64,000 nucleotides of DNA from Babesia bigemina (Eukaryota): the NCBI RefSeq assembly GCF_000981445.1, contig NC_027216.1:992001-1056000 (forward strand). The letters run 5' to 3'. Under the pieces are notes generated by a model. The model searched no databases. It was not told the origin of the DNA and was given only the letters and a program-made list of their open reading frames with translations. Shown here in pieces: positions 1 through 64,000 of this stretch (its first letter is position 1; each line of letters starts with the position of its first letter). The translations under genes and the position numbers were made by a program.

Positions 1-903
1 ATAGATATAAAACAAGATTCGACGGATCGTAAAGCTACATCAATCGACGGTAAGCAGGCATACAGTTGCAATCAAGAGAGATTGGAAACCAGGTTGAACG
101 GCTTGCGTTCATCATACATTGCAATGACAACTATGATGATCGATTATCTCGAGTTACTATGGCCCGTTGCATCGGAGGCCGCTGATGCGGATTATTCGAC
201 CGTAGTTCAAAGCATATTGTACGATGTTACGTATTCGGCTTTCCGCGCCTTACAATTGGCGGAAGAAAACAGTACGACATTCTCCGATATGGAGAGAATA
301 GTGTCGTCGGCTTTCGATAGTGTGGGAGTCATACCTATGGTGTCATCCACCACTAGCGACAGTGCCTGTTACCGTGAGCTGGATAGTAAACACGGTAACA
401 TCCTAAGTCGTAGAGCCGACCTTCAAGAGATTCTTAGTAGTTTGTATATCGAAACAGATGACGAAAAGACACTAGGATCATTGTTCCAAACTTTGAGAAA
501 TGCTATCGGCGCTGACGATCACTGGAAAACAAACAACGCCTTCAAGCTATTCTTGGATAATAGAGAACTGGTACAACGAGTGTTGCAATTGGATATCGCA
601 ATGCCGCGTATACAACAACTCATTGAAGAGTTTGTAGATGTTGTCAACGCCTCCATGCCGAGGCTCTTCGAGATTGCAGCAGGTGTTGACAGCTGCAAAA
701 CGACTTATGAGTTGGAGCCTACCAGGACTGCCGACAATCACTCAACTTCTTCCAACTCCGAAGATATTGTTGAACACCTTTTGGTAAGTCTTGACTCCGA
801 AAGTGTTACACTTGGAACTGGGTCACATGTTGAAGAAGGCGGTATCCAAAAAAAGGGATTTTGTAAGTCTTTTGGTAAGCTATTTCGCCGTAAAAAAACG
901 TAA
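1..903 (+). CDS. Lineage-specific hypothetical protein, 5'-partial (frame open from the window edge)
   Basis: Frame 1 is stop-free from base 1 (IDIKQDSTDRK...) to TAA at 901-903; helical and acidic, with no recognised motif. Confidence 0.6.
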   Translation: MDIKQDSTDRKATSIDGKQAYSCNQERLETRLNGLRSSYIAMTTMMIDYLELLWPVASEAADADYSTVVQSILYDVTYSAFRALQLAEENSTTFSDMERIVSSAFDSVGVIPMVSSTTSDSACYRELDSKHGNILSRRADLQEILSSLYIETDDEKTLGSLFQTLRNAIGADDHWKTNNAFKLFLDNRELVQRVLQLDIAMPRIQQLIEEFVDVVNASMPRLFEIAAGVDSCKTTYELEPTRTADNHSTSSNSEDIVEHLLVSLDSESVTLGTGSHVEEGGIQKKGFCKSFGKLFRRKKT

Positions 904-904
904 A

Positions 905-1882
905 CGAGTTCGTGCTTTATTCGTAATTCAATCAACTAATGAAATCCATCCGTGGCCACAGGAACTACATCTGGACTATCTGCTACCATGGGAGTTAAAT
1001 TCAGAATATGGATGCTAAAGCCATCCTGAAGCGGCAACAACCATAAAACGCTCTGTATTACCGGCTATAGCTTTTGTTCTTCATCACTACGATACCGCTG
1101 GTTGTATTTTTAGCGTTCAAAACCTTACTCATGAAGGTAAAAGCTGCGGCTATTGTGCCTGTCATCAACAGTGTGCTGACTACGTAGCCAGGTCCGATGT
1201 TCGGCTTTTCGAAACTATAGACTAACCGTGCTGTTGGTTGCAGGTTCCACGTCTAGTCATTGACTTCATCCGTGCTACCACCCAGCTGGGTTGAGAGTAT
1301 CATTCATGGTCTCGCGATGACTTATGTCCCTGTCCACCAACTCACACATTAGACAAGGTATCAATTGGCAACATGCCGACTAGACGATCTCTTTTACCTT
1401 AGACTACCTCACCGAATCATCATACCGTACAAACTACTAAGCAATTAACTGAGCACTTCGTGGAAGTTCACGTCGAGACCACGGACCCCTGCCTACAAGG
1501 CTGCGGTGTTAAGTCCTCATCGTATGAGTTGTTCAAGCCTGACAAACCCAAAATCTACGATGATAACGGAGAAGACAGCGGCCGCAAAATTGATATTCAG
1601 GCTGCCAATGAAGCAGCGTTCTACTGCCCCCCTCCGTACGTACTTGACCCACCCAACTGCTTTCACCAAGTGTTAGTGGAGGGTGAAGCAAAGAGCGTAA
1701 TCGATATAAGCAAGTCGCTGATTGAATCAGCATCCAACCACTTCGTCATCTTGAAGTTCGACAGAGAACTCGTAGGACCTGGCGAAACGCTGCGCCAGAC
1801 CCAGCCGTTGGAGTGTCGCTGCGTCACCATCAAGGGCATCGTCCTGTCTACCATCCACATCGAGCATTACTACGCCAAGTAA
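905..1882 (+). pseudogene. Broken paralog of the 6-Cys/s48-45-like gene at 59541-62417; only the last domain is intact
   Basis: ORF 1460-1882 (TDPCLQGCG...LFKP...AAFYCPPPYVLDPPNCF...LECRCVTIKGIVLSTI) is a close paralog of the C-terminus of 59541-62417. There is a weaker upstream remnant (..YLLPW, ~905-1000), and the 3' flank is also conserved between the copies. Confidence 0.8.
1151..1350 (-). mobile_element. Short 3'-terminal remnant (copy A) of the putative RLE non-LTR retroelement
   Basis: 1169-1253 closely matches 58216-58301 (identical 24-nt and 20-nt blocks). Minus-strand translation ELVDRDISHRETMNDTLNPAG aligns with KIVMRDMKPREDYDSVEDPGA of copy C. Confidence 0.6.
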
Positions 1883-2322
1883 TGAGTAGCTCAGATGTAG
1901 TAAATCTTTTTGTCAATGACAGAGTTTAATTGTCATAGTTCATGTTGGTCGTTATGTTGGTTTGTGTCTCCAGTAGCAGCATGACTTTCGGTTAGAATGT
2001 GGTATTTGCTGTTTCCAATTCCAAGACACATTATTGTGTTGAAATAACTGTTTATTCTTGCATGAGTCCTCGTAAGTCAATCCAATGTCGCATATCGTAA
2101 TCACGTACAATTATACCATTCCGTTGTTTTTCGAACTGCCTTAATGGGGGAGATGGGATTTGCCCGTCTACACATATTCCAAGAATTCATAAGATTTGCA
2201 GTGCCATTAATACACGAATATGGATAGCGCCAGATACATGTAACTATAGTTCAAAAGGTACAATGGTGTTATTGACAGACTGCATTGTCAGTTCCTGTCC
2301 ACAGAAGGCCATCGGTGGGAAG

Positions 2323-2935
2323 TAGAACAAGTATGGCTTCATCTGCCCGTCATATCTTTAAATCATACCTCATTGTACAATATCCAAGAATAGAGTGAAT
2401 TATAGTGACGATTTCCAAGTGAGCCTTTCAAGGCGACACCGGGCCCACCCACAGCCTGCACCGTGATGGGCTAGGCGAGGAGAAAGTGCGAGGCTATGCA
2501 CGATGGGATATTACGTGTCAGATACTGGTCAATATGGTCGGACTAAGGTAAACATCAGGCAACTTGGAAATACGCCCGACACCCCTTGGCTCAACAAGAG
2601 GCCCGACCTTTCGGGTTGGAACGTGAGGCATTGCACTGGATTGGCTAACTTCATCTGAACAGCACGATAACACGAAAAACAAATCTCAGAGATGTGGTTA
2701 TATGTGTCAATCGAGGGGGTTCCGTAGCCAATTCAGCTAGTAAGTGCCGTCGGCCTGATGTCATTGTGCTAACAGGTGGGGGCATGTATCGTGGTGGTCT
2801 AGGCAGTTGTGCCGAAACTTTCTGAGATACTGCAATTTTAACACCACTGAACACTTTGAACCAACGAATGTGAAATGTACGAACCAGCAAGATATTTTCT
2901 CAGCGAATGGTGGGGGAAAGTTCGTAATAGATAGA
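2323..2935 (+). mobile_element. Degenerate retroelement remnant (copy F): post-zinc-knuckle RH motif plus RLE PD motif
   Basis: One frame from 2457 reads CTVMG*ARRKCEAMHDGILRVRYWSIWSD*G...VICVNRGGS...RRPDVIVL, with internal stops. VNRG is shared with copy C. Confidence 0.55.
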
Positions 2936-2949
2936 TGTCCATTTAGGGT

Positions 2950-3687
2950 TTGCATTTTGTAAAATGCTCACCAGGGGGTCTCATTGGAAGCTGGGACTCC
3001 GCCTACTACACTAACCCCTTCGACCCGTGCAACCTGTGCCACAAGAGCAGGATCAGGATGGGATTCAAGGAGACAGACTTACCAAGTAGTCAACAAACTG
3101 GCAGCATCCTTTCCACCATCCTCACTTTCTGCTGCGGCGGTAGTGACCCTTTGCTGACATTGTCTGCCTACCTCAATTGCTTAACCAGGCTGACGCCGAG
3201 TACCACCGGGGAGCTGGTCTCGTACTTCCACAATTTTGGTGTCGAGTTGCACGGTTATGCTTTGAAGTCGTTGTCTCCACTGGGCATCTCTCTTTCCAAT
3301 TCACACCCCAACTGCCCCGACTGGGACCGTCTTGATGGCACCGACCTCAAAGATCTCCGTGGCATCCGTGGTTCCGAGTCTCTCAACTCAACGCATGACC
3401 ATCTGAAGAGTCCACATAAGCAATTTGGAGACAACTTGGGTCATTTACATCGCCATCCACAATTGTTGCCAACTATCTACCATTCGCATGCCCTCTACCC
3501 CCTCGTCTTTGACTACACGATTTTTCACTTCTTGAATGTTCTGCCATGTTCCCAAAAGTTTCGACTCCCAAGGCGTCCTACTTCATTCACGTCACGACAA
3601 TACTCGTTCACTGGAAGAGGATACTCCTACCTTGCTACGACATCGACTGCTTCAATGACCCCATGGGCAAACATTGTTACATCGTAA
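2950..3687 (+). pseudogene. Fragment of a ves1/VESA1-like variant surface antigen gene
   Basis: PFDPCNLCHKSRIRMGF, DPLLTLSAYLNCLTRLTPSTTGELVSYFHNFG and HPNCPDWDRL are typical internal VESA-like segments. There is no ATG start, and homology is lost toward the 3' end. Confidence 0.7.
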
Positions 3688-3924
3688 TTATCGCATTTAT
3701 GTAATCACAGGTTGTTATATGATGGAATGCAGTGCAGCAGTGATTAAATGTGCTGCTGAGGCGTATGCAGCGGGATGTGTAATAGATTCATGAAACTGTC
3801 GTATATACAACTGTGATTACACACCTATGCCACCTCCATGGCAACACTAAGGTAATGTAATAAAATAATTCATGGCATAATTAATTCGTGAGTAAGATAG
3901 ATTATAACCCGTGCCTATAGCTCG

Positions 3925-4290
3925 GGAGCGCCATGCTGGGTTTGGGAATGGGCAATCATCCGGGTGGGTGTACAAAATTTGTATACTTGTTTGGGTTGCT
4001 ATAAGCGACGTTTTGCGTCTTCATACGAATTTTTGTAAAGCTGCGTCTCGATTCAGTGTCGTAGATCACAGAGGCATGTGTTAGCGCATTAGCATTGTAG
4101 ACATACGGTTGGAAGTTGTTGGACCGAACTGGCGGAATCACCTTCCGTTAGAATTCATATCAGCCATATTGGCATAAAGTAACATTGTATGGGAACGTAG
4201 GCAACCGAAGTTCAGGAATTCTCACGTTCATTGGGACAACAGAACCCAGGATTCTTTCAGGCTGATTCGCCTTGGCGTGGAGCCACAGGG
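3925..4290 (+). mobile_element. Old diverged remnant (copy B), inverted homolog of 58300-58650
   Basis: 4131-4226 is the reverse-complement homolog of ~58343-58440 (ttcctgaacttcggtt; ggaaggtgattccgcca). Translation AIIRVGVQNLY...ELAESPSVRIHI weakly parallels TIVEIGITNQY...DLGISDRMEAHI of copy C. Confidence 0.5.
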
Positions 4291-5048
4291 TTTGAAACAA
4301 AGCATCTGCAAATTAAGGTTTTACATTAGGTGCTCGAAACAAGGCATTATTTTACAAGCTATGAAATGCCGGGATATTCACATACAACGTCAGCCTCGTA
4401 CACACTAGTTTCATACACGGCAGTGCGCTGGATTCCATAGCAACCACATATCACAGTTGACATCAAGAGTGGCGTGAGAAGAAGGTGATCACATATCATA
4501 GCGTGCAGTCCTTATGTGTCAGTATGCATTCGCAATCAAAGTTGCTGCAAGCACTGAAAGCAATAAACAATTACGCCAATCACGGAAGGCGGTAGAAGCA
4601 GTGTATACATGCCTCATCAGGTGACTGCTGTCTTGATAATAAGAAGGCACTATTAGACTATATTAACGCTGCGAAAAGCTATTTGCAACCCATGGTAACA
4701 CTTTAATCTTCAACGTCTGTCCAAACTTGCAACGACACTTATAAGCCTAGTATGGGCGACTAGTGCCGCATATATACGCTTACAATGACTCGCGATAGTT
4801 GTACTGAATGCCGCGTCAATGGTATCGAGATCGAAGAGCTGGGGCATCTGTGTAGTTCCTTCCTTTACCATAGGTATCTTTGGCATATCTTAATCTTTCT
4901 AAATTTAAATTAGAAGCCTATTTATTAGGTCTAAGCTGCACTTTTGCATTGCGTATTGTCGAAGACAACTCGTCTGTTTGCAACCTGGCCTGCAAATGGA
5001 CCAATCCATACAGGAGTAGTAGCTGCATAGTTTAACTCATTTTTCAAA

Positions 5049-6035
5049 ATGGTGTACACTTCGTTGACTGACATCCCTCGTAACCTTAAAGAAGGTATTG
5101 ACTGGTTGTTGGCCGTGAAGGGAGCCGATGCTGAAAAGAACTTAGCGGCCATGGGCGCTGCCCTATACGACTTTCTCGTAGACAAGCCTGTAGGCTTCAC
5201 GGAGGTGCCAGCTCTCGAGAATGTTAAGCTTATTTCGAAAGAGTTCCTGGAGCGACAGGAATTTAAGGACATGTGGCCTGCAAACGAGCTGCTGGGGAGA
5301 TTCAACAACCATGTGAAGACACAAAACATAGACCACCTTAAGTACCCGTTTCCCATAAACGACAGCGATTTTTCGAATGTCGTGCGTGCCAGGCGTGCCG
5401 TACCTGAAAAAATCGCAGAGGACCTAGGTAGGATTGTGGATGGTTGCGAGAGCTTCCTGGAGCATATCGTACTCCCTGAGCAGTATTTATCTGCTTATAA
5501 TTCAGAAGCAACTTGGAAGAAATCATGTTCGGAAAAGCCGGAAGATTGCGCAGTGGTACTTGTGGGTATTGCGCCAATGTTGTACGCAGGACTGCGTTCT
5601 TTGAAGGTCGCGTGCGACAATGAACGCCTAGGTGGGGTACCAGGGGCTAAGGCGATGAGCAGTTTGGGAAGTGTACTGTTGGCTGATGGTTACCAGGAAA
5701 AGCAATGGCCCACTGCAATGACCCCTTCATATGTCGCTAAGGCGTTGGAAGGTGTGAGTCATGAGGTGTTGGTCACGCTCTACGACTTCGCTGGATTCTG
5801 GGCTTTCTATGGATTGCATGACCCCAACAATGTTCCAGCTGTAAAATCTGGCGAGCTTGACAAGGACGCACAGGAGTTTATTGACTTCTACGTCAACATG
5901 AAGCCCATTAACCCTCCCAAGAAGAAGTTGCAGTTCATTAAGTCGCCCAGCACATACACTGCCACCGGATCGAACAACATGTATTACCCCTGGCTGCCAA
6001 CAGTGTTGGATATGGGTGATACTGTCCCACTTTAA
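5049..6035 (+). CDS. Short ves-related protein (VESA N-terminal-like domain only; ves2-like)
   Basis: Starts MVYTSLTDIPRNLKEGIDWL, the typical ves-family N-terminus, and carries an SEATW..SC...PEDCAVVLVGIAPMLYAGL motif. Single exon, 328 aa, no C-terminal TM segment. Confidence 0.8.
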   Translation: MVYTSLTDIPRNLKEGIDWLLAVKGADAEKNLAAMGAALYDFLVDKPVGFTEVPALENVKLISKEFLERQEFKDMWPANELLGRFNNHVKTQNIDHLKYPFPINDSDFSNVVRARRAVPEKIAEDLGRIVDGCESFLEHIVLPEQYLSAYNSEATWKKSCSEKPEDCAVVLVGIAPMLYAGLRSLKVACDNERLGGVPGAKAMSSLGSVLLADGYQEKQWPTAMTPSYVAKALEGVSHEVLVTLYDFAGFWAFYGLHDPNNVPAVKSGELDKDAQEFIDFYVNMKPINPPKKKLQFIKSPSTYTATGSNNMYYPWLPTVLDMGDTVPL

Positions 6036-6229
6036 TGCGCCTCATCGTCTGCCGTGTCTTTGTAAGACTGCGGGATGTATTCTTTAACGCTTTTATTAAT
6101 AAATGTTGATATATGTCCAATCTGTCATCCCCTCTGCCCATTGTTTTGAACCACTAATCGGTTTACCTAACAAGCAATCTGGTAGGTAAGGTCGTAGACG
6201 CATTAAGACAGCGTATTAGTGGCCTATAT

Positions 6230-6735
6230 CTATGAGTCAGTGCAGCGACCCGGCATCGCAGTAAACCGTGGATATGCCTGATACCATCTGGATGTCTGAG
6301 GAACACCGTCACTATCGTGGAGATAGGAATCACCAATCAATACAACCTAGTGGATACGGAGAAGTTCAAGAAGCAGAAGTAGGCAGACCTTATCGAGGAC
6401 CTCAAGGCGCGACAGTTCAACCAGCAGACCAAGATTTGGGTTATCCCCTACGTTATGACGTGGGAGGGAATAGTGACAAAGGAGCACAGCAAGTACAGAC
6501 GGGACCTGGGCATATCGGATCGCATGGAAGCCCACATACAAAGGGTAGTGATCCAAGAAACACATAAAATAGTGATGAGGGACATGAAACCAAGAGAAGA
6601 CTACGATTCTGTAGAAGACCCTGGTGCCCAAACTTGATGGACACCCGCATGGATGACACCAGTTACGATCGGCAACGGACCGATGTGGAACCCGCAGCCA
6701 GCACCAACGTGAGGCGCAGGCATGGTAAGGTTAAA
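6230..6735 (+). mobile_element. Best-preserved RLE endonuclease remnant of a non-LTR retrotransposon (copy C), pseudogenised
   Basis: MPDTIWMSE (6274-6300), then a +1 frameshift, then NTVTIVEIGITNQYNLVDTEKFKKQK*(TAG 6380-6382)ADLIEDL...WVIPYVMTWEGIVTKEHSKYRRDLGISDRMEAHIQ. This fits the PD..E..KxxKY RLE pattern. Confidence 0.75.
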
Positions 6736-7043
6736 AATCTGCCGTAGTTCTGCTAAGTCCACATATCGTTATACTAAGCGCTAATTGCTCTAACATGTCT
6801 AAAAAATATGCAAACATATCCGACCCAGTAATAAGCTGCAAAAGGTTAAGCGAAGCAGTTGTGAAGGTATGCCGGTACCCGAATGGCAAAAAGATGGGGC
6901 TTTGGATGCAATATATAACCACCCGGCAACATCCCAACAGAGTATTGTTGCAAACATTACATAATACCGACAATTATGTCACAATTAGAGCTGAACGTTA
7001 ATATATGTATATGGTTTAGCGCTTTGTCGTGTTCAATATAGTC

Positions 7044-56588: not shown

Positions 56589-57655
56589 ATGGCTGCATCT
56601 GTCGATTCGCGGGCCGAAGCGGCCAACTACTACGACCCTGAGAAAAGTTAGTGCAAACAATAGCCGTTCAATCCCCTGCAGATGCGACCGGTGACCACTA
56701 CTGTTTCTCGGAGACTACTCCGATGTACATCCGTCACGAATTTGTCAAGAAAGTGTTCGGCATCGTCACCATCCAACTCGCTGTAAGTTTGCTTCTATAA
56801 CATAGCGCTACGAATCCCATTCTACGCATTATTCGTCACCTTCTGTTGCAATTATGATGTATCACTCTGGATTCTGTCGCATGGTAGAGCCGTTTTCCTT
56901 CCTTATGACTAGTTCTTTCTCATGCGACACCTTGTTCATTGGCGGTGGTAGCCTTTTCTTGAAGATTTATTTTGGTAGGCGTATTTCGTTGCGACCTCTA
57001 CAATACAAAACTCATGTGAACTGTAGGCGACTTTCGCTTTTATGCTTGCAACCTTTAACGTCGAAGCCATGAAACAGTTCTTCCTACTGCGGCCTTATAT
57101 TGGGATAGTGGCAATCATCATCTTTATGATCGCCTCGATTGTAGTTGTTTGCAAACGTTCCTTGGCACACAACAAGGCTGTAGCCGCTTCTCTTTTGGTT
57201 TTGATGACAGGATGTATGATGCTTTACGTTGCGTGCTTCGCCGTGCACTTTGCTGCATTCGAAGTAACAGTAGCAGCGGGCATGACAGCTGGTTTGACGC
57301 TGGGTGTCACTCTTTTTGCTATGCAGACGAAGTATGACTTTACAGGTATGCGTGGTTATCATGCTTTTAAATGTCTGCAGGGTACATCATGCACATATTC
57401 TGCTTTAGCCTCGGCCTGTTCTTCGCTGGCATCCTCATTGCAATCTTCCCTAGCAGGGCGCTGCGCATTGCGTACTCAACAGTTGGAGCTCTGCTTGCGT
57501 GCGTCTATCTGGTTGTCGACATACAGTTAGCCGTTGGTGGTAGGAAGCACGAGTGGACAATTGACGACTACGTCATCGCGGCAATATCCATCTACCTTGA
57601 CATCATTAACCTCTTCGTCCATCTGCTCAGGCTTCTTGGTGATGCTAATGAGTGA
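56589..57655 (+). CDS. Bax inhibitor-1/TMBIM (LFG-like) membrane protein, multi-exon
   Basis: [35 protein letters not shown] and [18 protein letters not shown] motifs. Confidence 0.92.
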
Positions 57656-58190
57656 GGAGTTGCTGGAGCTCGTAAATAAGTTTACAATCTTCTCCGGCAT
57701 CTGTTGTCAATGGCATGGAAATACATGCCAAGGAGCGCTCTCTGGAACGTTTTCTAATGTACTAATTAATATCAATAATCAACACTGTGAATGGCCTAAT
57801 GTGAGTAGTGACATCATTAAACGTCGTCGCTCCATGATGTTATATACTGAATACCTCCTCGCGTAAATAATAGCCTCAAATGGATGCCAGCGTTTCCTCG
57901 TAAATACATAATCCATCGCCGTATTATAGTCGAGTTAGCATCAGGCATTTGTGTTGTGAGTACTTTTTCGTGATAAGAAAGTGAAACTTTACAGCGTATC
58001 ACCTCCGGGCGGCAAGCGTGGGCATTGCTAATTGGATAATCTGACGCAAGAACGCACGCACATTAACCATCAACGCAATACACAGCGCCTATTGCAGCGG
58101 CACGCCTGTTATAAGAGACCTATCGTATTAACGAAGCATAATTATTAAGTCCGTGGCACGGATATTTCAGAGTTGGTGTACCTGAGCTAC

Positions 58191-58650
58191 TTATTATTAT
58201 GGTGTCTGTCTTTTACAGTGTGCTCTGACTACATGGCCAGGTCCGATGTTCGGCTTTTCAGGGATATATACTAAAGGTGCTGTTGGTTGCAGGTTCACGT
58301 CAGGCAGACCTATGTAACCCTTGAATTCTGTACCGGTGTAACCGTCGGGATTCCTGAACTTCGGTTTCCCGCATTACCATATAGCGTTTAATCATGTCAA
58401 TGTAACCAGATTTGAATTCCGATGGAAGGTGATTCCGCCACCTTCTCACCGCATCCGTGTGCCACGCTGGTAATGTAATAGTAACTGTCTGTGCGCGCTA
58501 CGGTGCGAGATTAAGGTGCTGAAGAGTCACATGGATTTGCCAGCCGACACAAAATATTACATCATATAGATACTCTAACAATCACTCGCATTTCGTGAAT
58601 TCACCCGGCGGATGGCCCAACGCCTCTCCCATGCTGCCGACTCCGGCAGC
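58191..58650 (-). mobile_element. Retroelement remnant (copy D), ending in a short TAA-repeat tail
   Basis: 3' part matches 1169-1253 and 5' part matches inverted 3925-4290; ends ...cacactgtaaaagacagacaccataataataa in element sense. Confidence 0.55.
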
Positions 58651-58720
58651 CTCTGACCCGTTTCAGTCCTATGTTAGTATTAAACGACAACAGTGATTAT
58701 TACATCCCAGTCATTGCATC

Positions 58721-59235
58721 TATTATTATGTTCTCTCATCTTATAGTGTGCTATCTGGCTACATGTGACTTGTGTTACTGTTAAGTTTACCAAGGCTACC
58801 GCCTCACTCTGAAACCGGTTGCGGGATCCACGTCGGTCCATTGCCGATCGTCACTGGTGCCATCCATGCGGGCGTCTATCAAGTTTGGGGTAGAGGTTAG
58901 TTGGCCGGGTCATTATCATCAATAGGTATCACGTTACTCATCGCAGCGTACGGATTTGTAGCTCTAACATCGCGTTGGATGTGGGAATATATGCGATCGG
59001 AGATGCCAAGAGCTAGTAGATGCATATTATACTGTCGCTCCACAATCCATTTCCACGTCACAACATTTGGTACAACCATGGGCATCGTCTTATCCTTTAA
59101 AAGGCATTGGTACCTTTCACGCTTCTATGGCATCGTCTCCACAACGTTATATGCGCTGTAAATCGCCACATCGAGAATGGCGATAGCATTGCGATGATAA
59201 TGTATCGCCAATGATGGGTGTCTTGCAGAGGAGAA
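58721..59235 (-). mobile_element. Retroelement RLE remnant (copy E), homolog of copy C
   Basis: Single minus frame: RHPSLAIHYHRNAIAILDVAIYSAYNVVETMP*KRERYQCLLKD..VVPNVVTWKWIV..LGISDRIYSHIQR. 58817-58889 matches 6627-6699 at 65/73 nt (manual count). Confidence 0.7.
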
Positions 59236-59540
59236 TTTTGTTGGGAAAGACAACGATGCCTCATACATAAAATTATAGTTACATAAATTGCATAAAAAAG
59301 TTATCAATGATATAACATTAACACTGTTGTCTAATATATTAATTTTTTAGTCCTTATTTTTTGAGGAAAATTCTTCCATAACAAGGCAGCTAGCTGGGGA
59401 GGTGGAATCTTCACTGCCACTGCTTTGAAAATTACTAGCCCTTCTTATTAATTAATTCATATATTCATGCGTGGTAAGTTGGTGGGAGGCCATTTTTACT
59501 CAGGGTTATTTTTGTCTGTCGTCGGACGAAAAATATAACC

Positions 59541-62417
59541 ATGGCGCAATGTATGAGAGTCCAGTTGGCAATTTGCGCTATAGTTCTGCAGCTTATTGGA
59601 TTCATAGGCGCAGTGGAATATGGTTTCATTAATAATATGAGTTCTTTGGGTGCCAATCCCCTAGTTGTATACCACATAAACATGGATGAAATTGGGATAG
59701 CAACTCTGACATGCCCACGCCAAGTCAACGGAACTGAGTACGTATGGAATCCCCAACCAACAGCTGATCACGACGTCAGTCTCAAAACCTATGTGATTGA
59801 AGACGGTAAATTTCACTTCGTCCCTTTTTCAAAGGTAGTGGTCACCGAAGCACCACGCCCATATGTTCGGAAAGTGTCAAAGGAGTCGCAAACAGACTTG
59901 CATATCGATCTAATGGATGACGATATATATGCCATTACTGAAGAACGTTTAGTATTCATATGTGGTCCAAGGGATTTGGTCTTGACAGATGCTCTGCAAG
60001 GCCAACTTGCTCGCCTACCGGAGATTTATGAAACGGATATTTATTCATGGGATTCAACCACGCCATTGATTGAAGAAATAGCTAAGATAGGAATAAGCCT
60101 GGGTGTAATATTCTTGCACAGAGGCCTTAATCATCAATTACTGCAAGGCTGTGGAAGTCGTCCCTCGAAACTCTTTGCTCGAGATAATGACGTGACTGTA
60201 GACCCTATCACTGGCACACGTTCTTGTGTAGTAGATCCAATGTCGACATTACGCACTGGGTTCGTTTGCAAAGGCAGAATAGAACCGAACGATTGCATGA
60301 AATACCTCCTGTACGAAGACAGAGTGGTAACTGCTCCTCGACCATATTCGTATCGTTATTTTAATACCCATAAGCCTTGGGTGGTAGCTAGATATTTTAA
60401 TGACGTAGCATTACCCCGTTTCAACGGCGAATGTCGATGCATAGATCCTAAGACTGGTCACGTGAAAGCAAGGATGGAGATTCGTTGGAAAACTGAATAC
60501 GTTTGTGACATAGCTAGCATGATTGTTCGTAACAGGTTGAAGCCTATTAGTGGGCCGTGGTGTTCAGTAATGCTACATCCGGGTGCTACGTTGACCATTA
60601 AGTTGCCAAAACAGACAGACAAGTCGGCTGCTACCGGCGAAGAATACGAAGAAGACGTTGACGATATTGACTATGATCCTTCGACAGTTCCATTTTCGCA
60701 ACTTCCATCTACCCACGCATACGAAAGTGAATTCAAGCCGGACACGGAGTTGACGCTACGCCAAATACAAACGATTTATGACATCAATGATTACGACGAA
60801 ATCGTGACCAACAAAGCGTTCACTGGCGACGTGCTCGAGGTAGATATTTCACAAATGGAGAGAGGAGAGGTTAAGCTGAAGTACCATACGGGCAGACCTC
60901 TTGCATTACGAAGTGGATACAATTCGTTCTTATATCATTGGACATTCATATCTAGGAACGAATACGTTCTAGAAAAGATACGCGCTGTGGTGAACGTCTC
61001 ATTTGCGCCTACTTATCGCTACAATATTATTGGTTGTGACCGATGGAGGCCAGGTATGTTTGATCCGGCAAATGACGTTGGCTCTCTTACAATTAGAAAC
61101 ATGCGGAATGGTATAGGGAAAATAGCTGAATGGCTGTTAGATGTCATGAGTGGCGAGGAACAAGCGGGTATTCAATGCCAACCCAATGAGGAGCTGTTTC
61201 CAAACAATTGTGAGTCCACAGGATACGATCTTTCCTCCAATCAGGTTGCGCCATTCCCTACATCTGTGCGCAATGTCACACTTTACCCCGTTCGAGGATT
61301 TCAGGTATTCGAGATGAGCTTCCAAAATGTGCCTGTCAGTCACGCTTGCAGTTGTGTCGATGAACATGGATACGAGACATCTAGGCTAATTTTGAGATCC
61401 AACCGTCGTGAGGAGTATGAGTATACAGTAAGTCGTGAAGAGGCAAATCAAAGGTTGCTGCCCTACTCATTACTGCCCTGGACCGAGGTGGCTTTCTTAC
61501 ACGGCGATCGCACTCCTATGCAATCAATTAAGCTACACAACACACCCCATAGACCTATGAAACTACATTCGGGCACAGTATTATCCATGCGGTGTGTTAT
61601 GTACCACGCATTGTACAACGGTGAGAATAACGCTGCCGCAATGCCTACCTGGTTACCAGATTATCCTGGATTTAACCATTACAAAATATATACTACCGCA
61701 GAAGGAGATAGGTTAATTAAAAGGCCACACGACGAGAGTATAGCTGGCACAAGACGTGGATTCCAAGTCACGCTGTCAGAATACACAGAAGAATATAGTG
61801 ATTTGCTAATCAAATCCAACAGTGGCTCAATTTTGGTATCCAGGGATCCAGATCACTCGGAATACGTGCCCATGACATTCGTTTGTGGTAAGGAGATTTC
61901 AGAATCAGATTTTGATCAAAGCAACGATAACGCAGCTGCAGCTGCCATTCCCCCACCTGTAGCACTATTAGAGGAATACACGTGGAACGTAGTTCAAATT
62001 GACGTAGAGATGACGGACCCATACATGCAAGGGTGCGGAATTACTGACTCAAGAGATACTCTATTCAAGCCCGAGACACCCAAACTCTACAGCTCCATCA
62101 TACGACACCCTCGCGGCTGCAAGATCGACATTCAGACTGCGGGTGAGGCGGCGTTCTACTGCCCAGCACCGTACGTCCTGGACCCACCCAACTGCTTCGA
62201 CCAGGTCTCCGTGAACGGTGAAGTGAAGAACCTCAGCGACATCAGCCAGTCTTTGGTGGCTTCTCGAACTAAGCACTTCGTTACCTTGCGGTTCGACAGT
62301 GAACTCATTGGACCCGGGGAAAAGCTGCGCCAGACCCCGCCACTTGAATGCCGCTGCGTCACCGTCAAAGGCATCGTCCTCTCCACCATCCAGATTGGGA
62401 ACTACTACAACAAGTAA
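59541..62417 (+). CDS. Secreted Cys-rich protein with several s48/45 (6-Cys)-like domains, multicopy family
   Basis: N-terminal signal peptide; repeated GC...C...(F/I)xC....PxxC...CxC modules (e.g. MQGCG..CKIDI..FYCPAPYVLDPPNCFDQV..LECRC); paralog fragment at 1460-1882. Confidence 0.75.
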   Translation: MAQCMRVQLAICAIVLQLIGFIGAVEYGFINNMSSLGANPLVVYHINMDEIGIATLTCPRQVNGTEYVWNPQPTADHDVSLKTYVIEDGKFHFVPFSKVVVTEAPRPYVRKVSKESQTDLHIDLMDDDIYAITEERLVFICGPRDLVLTDALQGQLARLPEIYETDIYSWDSTTPLIEEIAKIGISLGVIFLHRGLNHQLLQGCGSRPSKLFARDNDVTVDPITGTRSCVVDPMSTLRTGFVCKGRIEPNDCMKYLLYEDRVVTAPRPYSYRYFNTHKPWVVARYFNDVALPRFNGECRCIDPKTGHVKARMEIRWKTEYVCDIASMIVRNRLKPISGPWCSVMLHPGATLTIKLPKQTDKSAATGEEYEEDVDDIDYDPSTVPFSQLPSTHAYESEFKPDTELTLRQIQTIYDINDYDEIVTNKAFTGDVLEVDISQMERGEVKLKYHTGRPLALRSGYNSFLYHWTFISRNEYVLEKIRAVVNVSFAPTYRYNIIGCDRWRPGMFDPANDVGSLTIRNMRNGIGKIAEWLLDVMSGEEQAGIQCQPNEELFPNNCESTGYDLSSNQVAPFPTSVRNVTLYPVRGFQVFEMSFQNVPVSHACSCVDEHGYETSRLILRSNRREEYEYTVSREEANQRLLPYSLLPWTEVAFLHGDRTPMQSIKLHNTPHRPMKLHSGTVLSMRCVMYHALYNGENNAAAMPTWLPDYPGFNHYKIYTTAEGDRLIKRPHDESIAGTRRGFQVTLSEYTEEYSDLLIKSNSGSILVSRDPDHSEYVPMTFVCGKEISESDFDQSNDNAAAAAIPPPVALLEEYTWNVVQIDVEMTDPYMQGCGITDSRDTLFKPETPKLYSSIIRHPRGCKIDIQTAGEAAFYCPAPYVLDPPNCFDQVSVNGEVKNLSDISQSLVASRTKHFVTLRFDSELIGPGEKLRQTPPLECRCVTVKGIVLSTIQIGNYYNK

Positions 62418-63352
62418 CAAGTAGCTCAGATTTGGTCACTCTTTTGGCAATGAACCACTTTAATTGTCATTGTTCATGTTGGTCGATCTGGTGGTTTGTG
62501 TCACGCGTGAGAGAATTGCTTTGGGTAGAGTGTTGCGATTATAATTGCCAGTCTAACGACATATTCTTGTGTTGTCGTAGCTTTTTGTAACTAGCGTGAA
62601 TGGCCATGGGCCCGGTGAAGACCGTACTGTGGAATTACATGTCACAACCACTTAGTTGGGCACTGTCTACCGCAGGCATTAGGAAGATGCAACTTAGAGG
62701 TTTGCATCTCCGTTCGCATTTTGAAACCTTAACAATGCCCTTAACACACGACAAAGAGCAATACGTGGTACCTTGAACGGGACTTCACTGAGCCCCCAAT
62801 TTGGGTGAGCAATTACTGCGGCGGTGCCTGAGCACGTTGGTCGACCGCTGGGAGTGGGTGGCTAGACCGTGTGGATTTCACCCTATTTAGGCGAATCTCG
62901 GTCATTCTTTGCCTATGTATGAGTTAATCTTCGGTGTGGTGGCATTTATCGTCAGCATCGTCATAAGTCTCGAGGTCGTAACCCCAGAATGCACCCTAGC
63001 AGAGGCTTTGAGGGGCGCCCCGCAAACATGGCCACCCACTTATTAGTTACCCCGCAGGAGTTGCTACGCAAGTGCGCACAATGCCAGTCTATGTCGGGTA
63101 TCCACATTTTCAGAGTTTGAGTGGAAGTGACTGCAATTTGATGGAGATTATGCTGGCACCATAACCAGTCATAGTTTAGTTAACCGTGATTAGCAAGAAC
63201 GTGCAGGAGCAGCCAGCATTGAAAGCACGCTTACGAGAGCGTACCTTGAGAGCAGCCGGGTTGTGTATCTCTACCTGAAGACGGTACTTTGAGGTTCAGG
63301 TACACTGCTAATTTTTGTCCGCGGCAGTGCTTTTGAAACCGTCACGTGCAAG

Positions 63353-64000
63353 ATGGCTGTGTCAGCAGCAGAGAATGAACAAACCTATCAGGCAGTAAGT
63401 GATTCTACGGACTGCAATAGTCATGCGAAACACAACGAGGATGGGAATGAGGGAATGCTGATGGATATTAGCGAAATGAAGGCAACGGTGGAGGATAAGA
63501 TGGAAACGAGGGAGTCGCTACAGGATATTAACGAAATGAAGGCAACGGTGGAGGATAAGATGGAAACGAGGGAGTCGCTACAGGATATTAACGAAATGAA
63601 GGCAACGGTGGAGGATAAGATGGAAACGAGGGAGTCGCTACAGGATATTAGCGAAATGAAGGCAACGGTGGAGGATAAGATGGAAACGAGGGAGTCGCTA
63701 CAGGATATTAACGAAATGAAGGCAACGGTGGAGGATAAGATGGAAACGAGGGAGTCGCTACAGGATATTAGCGAAATGAAGGCAACGGTGGAGGATAAGA
63801 TGGAAACGAGGGAGTCGCTACAGGATATTAACGAAATGAAGGCAACGGTGGAGGATAAGATGGAAACGAGGGAGTCGCTACAGGATATTAACGAAATGAA
63901 GGCAACGGTGGAGGATAAGATGGAAACGAGGGAGTCGCTACAGGATATGAGGGAAATGATGAAGTTGCTGAAGGATATGAGGGAAATGATGAAGTCGCTG
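63353..64000 (+). CDS. Tandem-repeat protein, 3'-partial; upstream exons are possible
   Basis: Open frame from ATG 63353 to the window end, encoding (D I [N/S] E M K A T V E D K M E T R E S L Q)x8 and then DMREMMKLLK-type units. Confidence 0.7.
   Translation, partial: MAVSAAENEQTYQAVSDSTDCNSHAKHNEDGNEGMLMDISEMKATVEDKMETRESLQDINEMKATVEDKMETRESLQDINEMKATVEDKMETRESLQDISEMKATVEDKMETRESLQDINEMKATVEDKMETRESLQDISEMKATVEDKMETRESLQDINEMKATVEDKMETRESLQDINEMKATVEDKMETRESLQDMREMMKLLKDMREMMKSL
63463..64000. repeat. Coding minisatellite: 8 near-identical 60-bp units followed by 30-bp units
   Basis: Directly visible; the 60-bp units differ at a single A/G position. Confidence 0.98.

What the first reader, a model, noticed from the sequence alone, without database searches (positions are those of the whole stretch)
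58191..58760. Copies share a common 3' terminus with a short (TAA)n tail and lie head-to-tail
In element orientation, copies A, D and E all run gacgtg(g)a.c..gcaacc...gtag.cag..gcacact... They then end in cataataataa (D, 58191), cataataata (E, 58721) and cacaata (A, ~1151). Their 5' extents differ: about 200, 460 and 510 bp. A shared 3' end, variable 5' truncation and a simple-repeat tail are hallmarks of target-primed reverse transcription. D follows almost directly after the tail of E, suggesting repeated insertion at a preferred site. Dong-type R4 elements are known to target TAA repeats.
Basis: partly seen in the sequence, partly recalled or inferred. Interest (0 to 1): 0.7.

Follow-up and report, generated by a model that had tools for sequence, protein, structure and literature searches.

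The report
Stacked retrotransposon ends in cattle Babesia
Two short repeats lying head to tail in the cattle parasite Babesia bigemina end in the same tail as its jumping gene of the R2/R4 type: one is a decayed, front-truncated copy of that gene, while the other joins the tail to a different repeated sequence and may be a small hitch-hiking element that likely borrowed the same copying enzyme.

Summary
The shared 3' end is real: the last 103-114 bases of A, D and E are homologous (0 of 500 shuffles each), begin at the last codons of a reverse-transcriptase/restriction-like-endonuclease ORF, and other E-type copies in public contigs stop at the same place in unrelated flanks. E (58721-59265) and C (6299-6712) encode the endonuclease end of a 1347-aa Babesia bigemina LINE protein on record in four versions 1-4 residues apart, whose predicted fold matches R2 best. 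But the three copies are not one element cut to three lengths: D's 340-400-base head matches neither E nor the LINE protein; it matches another repeat, B. The tail is only 2-3 TAA units, absent in A, and no TAA microsatellite flanks any copy, so 'Dong' is not earned. LINE-like elements in B. bigemina were reported in 2022 without clade or anatomy in the text I read. Verdict: a new, probably recently active member of a known kind; the open lead is that D is a SINE-like partner.

The parts
58721..59265 (-). Copy E: 5'-truncated, decayed LINE copy; endonuclease (REL) coding remnant 59265-58807, stop 58806-58804, 3' UTR, tail CATAATAATA 58730-58721
   Evidence: tblastn 37% identity to P0004 aa 1187-1346, E 3e-22; frameshift-aware REL profile 54 bits, 0 of 60 shuffles; stop position; a contig in run X1 leaves the window sequence at 59264 (table 7)
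58191..58301 (-). Copy D, LINE-type 3' end: last codons of the ORF, 3' UTR, three TAA units
   Evidence: 83% identical to A over 105 columns; homologous to E's tail, 0 of 500 shuffles; only (TTA)3 run in the window
58302..58644 (-). Copy D head: repeat shared with B, not LINE coding sequence, identity unknown
   Evidence: 61% identical to B over 310 columns; REL and RT profiles at shuffle level; no coding-frame signal in six frames; several variant contigs in run X2
58645..58720 (-). Spacer between E's tail and the firm start of D; possibly D's 5' end
   Evidence: marginal homology to B's upstream sequence, 98 of 2000 shuffles
58182..58191 (-). 3' flank of D: 10-mer that elsewhere in the window follows the stop codons of the two 6-Cys genes
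   Evidence: 3 occurrences, chance mean 0.10; flank alignment
1151..1253 (-). Copy A: short LINE 3' stub of the D-type tail, no TAA repeat; weak ORF-end homology to about 1313
6299..6712 (+). Copy C: endonuclease end of the LINE ORF, close to the intact family; no recognisable tail
   Evidence: tblastn 90% identity to P0004 aa 1211-1344; 144 bits; tail against D 431 of 500, against E 9 of 500 shuffles
3925..4235 (+). Copy B: older relative of D's head; no detectable LINE-type tail
   Evidence: tail against D 327 of 500 shuffles
59544..62417 (+). Neighbouring 6-Cys (s48/45) gene, right of E
   Evidence: Pfam s48_45, E 1.9e-12
57066..57347 (+). Part of the neighbouring Bax-inhibitor-like gene, left of D
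   Evidence: Pfam Bax1-I, E 3.9e-06, below the curated cut-off

Best explanation
E is a front-truncated, decayed copy of a Babesia bigemina non-LTR retrotransposon with a C-terminal restriction-like endonuclease, A and D end in the same family's 3' end, and all were likely pasted by target-primed reverse transcription, D likely as a short non-autonomous unit landing at E's AT-rich tail. Inferred and weakest: D's head and tail moved together as one RNA that carries the LINE's 3' recognition sequence, and the 10-mer at both ends of D is a target-site duplication of E's tail. I put the LINE origin of E and of the three tails at about 0.92 and the one-unit reading of D at about 0.4, ahead of its two rivals.
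For: P0002 (copy C) finds B. bigemina RT proteins at 95% identity. P0004 has YIDD, CCHC, RHN, PD..E and K..KY motifs; the CCHC, PD and K/Y residues are invariant in 60 of 60 aligned relatives. Best structural matches are R2 proteins (Foldseek E 6e-29; Z 30.2, 749 residues, model range 315-1128). E and C are the only 2 of 212 window tiles clearly above the rest with the REL profile (144 and 54 bits; next 22.3). In public contigs summed depth (not a copy number) steps from 4.1 to 33.5 (X1) and 3.6 to 14.8 (X2) across E's tail; 4 contigs have loose ends at 58723-58725 with different flanks (3 of the 13 rows shown; 15 rows hidden) and a fifth piece stops at 58720. The loose end at 58794 in X2 matches A's tail at 20 of 30 bases by eye, tying the A/D tail to the commoner UTR. 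For D as a unit: the head is repeated (B; three variant contigs at 58343-58415 in X2 where the flank has one), shows no coding signal, and CATAATAATA flanks it on both sides while A and two outside copies end otherwise.
Against: B has D's head but no detectable tail (327 of 500); B-D homology into the tail motif is marginal (88 of 2000). No outside contig showed head and tail joined at another locus, and D's tail region had one contig per run, though the lay also did not pick up copy A, so it is insensitive at about 83% identity. No empty site: contigs of X1 and X2 span both of D's junctions with no joint. No target-site duplication was found for E or A. The flanking 10-mer may be two independent family tails. 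C, the copy closest to the intact ORF, has no recognisable tail. Variant contigs could be alleles of mixed infections.
Confidence: 0.7

Rival explanations
1. D is a chance composite: a roughly 110-base LINE stub inserted next to an unrelated multicopy host sequence (for example flank DNA of the ves-like or 6-Cys families), with E inserted separately.
For: B lacks the tail; B lies downstream of a ves-like ORF; D's 3' flank resembles a 6-Cys 3' region (0-1 of 500 with the 10-mer, 35 of 500 without); A carries the same tail without the head (328 of 500).
Against: B-D similarity runs on, weakly, into the tail motif (88 and 34 of 2000); the identical 10-mer flanks head plus tail; no match of the head to six window proteins of these families.
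Confidence: 0.3
2. D is the 5'-truncated 3' end of a second, older LINE lineage with a long non-conserved C-terminal extension or 3' UTR.
For: A second RT lineage exists in B. ovata (P0032, 47% identity); D's 40 bases upstream of the motif resemble C's ORF end (15 of 2000; but 462 of 2000 against E); two 3-base gaps in the B-D alignment.
Against: tblastn of 285 retrieved proteins against A, B and D gave only 9 scattered hits at E 0.009-0.05; REL and RT profiles at shuffle level; no frame shows a coding pattern (259-928 of 1000); no protein hit for the most open frame (a weak search).
Confidence: 0.25
3. The repeats are segmental duplications of variant-gene islands, not retroposed copies.
For: All five lie in the two AT-richer ends of the window beside 6-Cys and ves-like paralogues; the 6-Cys 3' ends are themselves duplicated (1433-2065 against 61964-62599).
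Against: Homology stops at the tail; outside copies diverge into unrelated flanks at the same point; E and C encode the endonuclease end.
Confidence: 0.03

Closest known systems
R4/Dong clade non-LTR retrotransposons (PMC7998251 and PMC3812793, passages read)
   Same: Single ORF with RT and C-terminal REL endonuclease, no N-terminal zinc finger, a conserved N-terminal three-helix segment that could be the divergent Myb/SANT domain, short TAA-containing end.
   Different: No (TAA)n microsatellite around any copy; Myb domain and RT placement among named R4/Dong elements not shown. Closest named relatives found are RTs of Babesia, Theileria equi and microsporidia.
R2 retrotransposons (PDB 9nl2, 9nl3, 9dou, 8gh6)
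   Same: Best sequence-profile (E 2e-53) and fold match, including the C-terminal endonuclease region.
   Different: 14-16% identity; no conserved N-terminal Cys/His column; copies dispersed, not in 28S rDNA.
'LINE-like' elements of B. bigemina, B. ovata, B. divergens and T. equi (PMC9141347); RT gene clusters of B. caballi and B. ovata (PMC10463595)
   Same: Almost certainly the same family; 0.97% of the B. bigemina assembly in that paper.
   Different: The main text parts I read give no clade for B. bigemina (B. divergens copies were auto-called R2), no 3' end, target or non-autonomous partner; 'Dong' occurs 0 times. Its tables S2 and S6 were not held and may say more.
Entamoeba EhSINE1/EhLINE1 pair (PMC2996970, passages read)
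   Same: A 500-600-base non-coding element sharing only its last about 70 bases with an REL-type LINE; D has this outline (up to about 530 bases, 110 shared).
   Different: EhSINE1 has 393 copies with target-site duplications; D has one copy with a tail, one without, and a few partial outside matches.

Membership tests
RLE-type non-LTR retrotransposon (R2/R4 group): parent of E and C | One ORF with non-LTR reverse transcriptase | tested here: met
   RVT_1 E 5e-30; YIDD at 818
RLE-type non-LTR retrotransposon (R2/R4 group): parent of E and C | C-terminal CCHC knuckle and PD-(D/E)xK-type endonuclease | tested here: met
   motifs, invariant in 60 of 60, aligned to R2 over model residues 315-1128
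RLE-type non-LTR retrotransposon (R2/R4 group): parent of E and C | Fixed 3' end with variable 5' truncation | tested here: met
   3' ends at 58720-58725 in 5 outside contigs; 5' ends at aa 1187 (E) and 1211 (C). C itself lacks the tail.
RLE-type non-LTR retrotransposon (R2/R4 group): parent of E and C | Target-site duplication or empty site | tested here: inconclusive
   none for E or A; no empty site in X1 or X2, X3 does not cover
R4/Dong clade | No N-terminal zinc fingers | tested here: met
   no conserved Cys/His column in residues 1-330 of the 60-row alignment; 1 of 25 relatives has a weak zf-C2H2 hit
R4/Dong clade | Divergent N-terminal Myb/SANT domain | tested here: inconclusive
   three predicted helices at 66-115 with conserved WP..RMPR.GW; no Pfam Myb hit in 25 of 25; domain not folded alone
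R4/Dong clade | RT phylogeny inside R4 with named references | not testable with these tools
   no named R4, Dong or EhLINE protein among the 120 listed of 322 hits
Dong in the strict sense | Insertion within (TAA)n microsatellites | tested here: not met
   no TAA microsatellite in the window; outside flanks are ordinary sequence after 1-3 units
SINE-like non-autonomous retroposon (D) | 3' end shared with a partner LINE | tested here: met
SINE-like non-autonomous retroposon (D) | Non-coding head unrelated to the LINE ORF | tested here: met
   homology to the LINE's 5' UTR could not be tested (no LINE DNA held)
SINE-like non-autonomous retroposon (D) | Several dispersed copies with head and tail joined and a common 5' end | tested here: inconclusive
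   head repeated; tail seen on D only
SINE-like non-autonomous retroposon (D) | Head derived from a Pol III RNA (tRNA, 5S, 7SL) | tested here: not met
   no tRNA, no Rfam match of note, no A or B box with recalled patterns; EhSINE1 also shows only limited box similarity

The most novel reading that the evidence does not exclude
B. bigemina carries a still-mobile R4-like LINE together with a SINE-like partner (D/B family: unique 400-base head plus the LINE's last 110 bases) that inserted into the tail of an earlier LINE copy and duplicated it; this would be the first LINE/SINE pair described in an apicomplexan, piling up beside the 6-Cys and ves-like gene families.
Probability: 0.25. Interest if true: 0.68.

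Novelty: new member of a known kind. Interest (0 to 1): 0.42.

Why it matters
Apicomplexan genomes are nearly free of transposons, and the Babesia LINEs have been noted but, in the papers I could search, not described. Four versions of an intact 1347-aa ORF only 1-4 residues apart point to recent activity, so insertion polymorphism could serve as strain markers and as a source of rearrangement in the variant-antigen islands where all five window copies lie. A defined 3' recognition end makes the target preference testable in vitro. A SINE-like partner would be new for the phylum. The copies in this window are themselves dead and probably old.

Tried and rejected
No whole genome was held, so the genome-wide census could not be run. 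D's head as an inverted RT fragment (twin priming): suggested by weak tblastn hits (best E 0.009), rejected because the RT profile scores at shuffle level (19 of 30). D or B as diverged REL coding sequence: rejected at this sensitivity (8 and 35 of 60 shuffles). A coding frame in the head: none; protein search of the most open frame among longer proteins found nothing (weak evidence). 6-Cys or ves-like coding origin of the head: no tblastn hit. Structured RNA: tails z -0.65 to 0.90, head z -1.32; Rfam and ARAGORN blank. No relatives in viral or metagenome contigs. Single-sequence fold of copy C's piece was poor (pLDDT 51). Independent origins of the Babesia and T. equi elements: the free tree separates them but one clade is not rejected (AU p 0.34, 19 of 29 rows kept). 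Rows with E used a wrong anchor and were redone. PMC3505731 had no passage on transposons; PMC329514 is not held.

Full report
Setting. The window is from Babesia bigemina: its SERCA protein is in the collection letter for letter, clustered with the B. ovata orthologue and on a contig of the same length as one that holds named B. bigemina proteins, and copy C matches B. bigemina proteins at 95%. The finding lies between a Bax-inhibitor-like gene and a 6-Cys (s48/45) gene. Self-comparison gave four repeat pairs outside the terminal tandem array: a 6-Cys duplication, C with E, A with D, and B with D. No whole genome was held.

The observation. The motifs and end points are present. The last 103, 111 and 114 bases of A, D and E are homologous in all three pairs, 0 of 500 shuffles each, and homology stops at the tail. 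The tail is short: three TAA units in D, the only such run in 64 kb, two in E, none in A. CATAATAATA occurs only at the ends of D and E. E reaches 59265. A is firm for about 105 bases and weak to about 165. D's head is firm to 58644 through its likeness to B, 76 bases short of E's tail; the rest is marginal.

The parent element. Copy C retrieved a 1347-aa B. bigemina protein, P0004, with RVT_1, YIDD, a CCHC knuckle and PD..E / K..KY endonuclease motifs, invariant in 60 of 60 aligned relatives. Its model (1165-aa member, pLDDT 86) matches R2 proteins best, as does the profile. Four distinct 1347-aa versions differ by 1-4 residues and carry 8 listed GenBank accessions (some are on short contigs and may be redundant), which suggests recent activity. 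Relatives are in B. ovata, B. caballi, T. equi, microsporidia and unnamed metagenome contigs (120 of 322 listed). C matches aa 1211-1344 at 90% and E aa 1187-1346 at 37%.

The 3' end outside the window. Laying public contigs on 58080-58840 showed summed depth stepping up across E's tail in X1 and X2, loose ends of 4 contigs at 58723-58725 with different flanks (13 of 28 loose-end rows shown) and one more piece ending at 58720. Two of these flanks continue CATAAT with TTAA, so the common end is a short AT-rich tail and not a TAA microsatellite. Loose ends at 58762, 58794 and 58802 mark a UTR segment in which E differs from the commoner copies; the X2 segment matches A's tail at 20 of 30 bases by eye. 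Contigs of X1 and X2 span D's 3' junction and the D/E junction with no joint: the arrangement is not an assembly artefact and no empty site was seen in 2 of 2 covering runs.

D is not a shorter E. A frameshift-aware REL profile of 114 relatives scores C 144 and E 54 bits but D, A and B at shuffle level; an RT profile of 117 relatives does the same for both strands of D, B and A. D's head is unrelated to E's and C's bodies and related to B (score 211 against a shuffle maximum of 95.5). No frame shows a coding pattern, and a protein search with its most open frame was blank. In X2 three variant contigs cover 58343-58415 where the flank has one, so the head is probably multicopy, though mixed infections could mimic this. 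B has no detectable tail, and its likeness to D into the tail motif is marginal. So D is a 340-400-base repeat joined to a 110-base LINE end. Three readings remain: one non-autonomous unit (about 0.4; SINE-like or an internally deleted LINE), a chance composite (0.3), or the end of a second LINE lineage (0.25). The 10-mer on both sides of D would be a target-site duplication under the first, and two family tails under the others.

Mechanism. By established R2/R4 biology (my knowledge, with the R2 structures), the protein binds the 3' end of its RNA, nicks the target and reverse-transcribes from the nick; early stops give 5' truncation. Shown here are the protein's anatomy, the fixed 3' end and the truncations; nicking, target preference and mobilisation of D in trans are inferred.

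Comparison with what is known. PMC9141347 (abstract, passages, parts 2-3 of 5 of the body; one supplementary table, S1; S2 and S6 not held) reports LINE-like elements in B. bigemina (0.97% of the assembly), B. ovata, B. divergens and T. equi, gives no clade for B. bigemina and found no tRNA-derived SINE. PMC10463595 (passages) notes RT gene clusters in B. caballi and B. ovata. PMC3812793 and PMC7998251 (passages) give TAA microsatellites as the Dong target and describe R4/Dong as RT plus REL with a divergent Myb domain and no N-terminal zinc finger. PMC2996970 (passages) gives the EhSINE1/EhLINE1 outline. PMC4202319 (passages) lists microsporidian LINEs without clade. Eight literature searches (listings only, apart from the papers named) showed no description of the clade, 3' end, target or SINE partner of the Babesia element; Repbase, Dfam and subscription journals were not searchable. 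The element works like an R4/Dong-type RLE retrotransposon, is filed here as an RLE-type non-LTR element, and is not filed as Dong because the microsatellite target was not met.

Verdict. Observation partly confirmed, interpretation partly supported. A new, probably recently active member of a known kind, already flagged in this species; interest 0.42. The SINE-like partner is the lead worth one blastn against the assembly.

Noticed in passing
window 58182-58191 (-), 1885-1894 (+), 62420-62429 (+): The 10-mer right after D's tail occurs only twice more, each just after a 6-Cys gene's stop codon; D's TAA tail sits where such a stop would be, so part of the tail may be target DNA of a relic 6-Cys 3' end. 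Beyond the 10-mer the likeness is weak (35 of 500).
   Followed up: partly
window 1-7000 and 58000-64000: All five repeat copies lie in the two AT-richer ends of the window beside 6-Cys and ves-like paralogues; the core-gene stretch between has no REL or RT profile hit.
   Followed up: partly
P0004, P0008, P0009, P0010: Four intact 1347-aa LINE ORFs 1-4 residues apart, annotated mostly as hypothetical proteins: candidate active element in a piroplasm.
   Followed up: partly
P0004 relatives: Nearest non-piroplasm relatives are microsporidian RTs and unnamed metagenome proteins at 40-45% identity, closer than or equal to the T. equi element (41%); piroplasm monophyly is neither recovered nor rejected. 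Hits named Octopus, mites, wasp and bacterial MAGs may be contamination.
   Followed up: partly
P0015, P0028, P0073, P0119: Several Babesia gene models are much longer than the RT match and carry unrelated sequence or names (one with PF12785); they may be LINE insertions into host multigene families merged by the annotation.
   Followed up: no
window 1403-1882 (+): A lone C-terminal 6-Cys fragment, 61% identical to the end of the gene at 59544-62417, directly right of copy A.
   Followed up: no
window 63463-63959 (+): A 60-base tandem array (8.3 copies, 98% matches) in an open frame running off the window.
   Followed up: no
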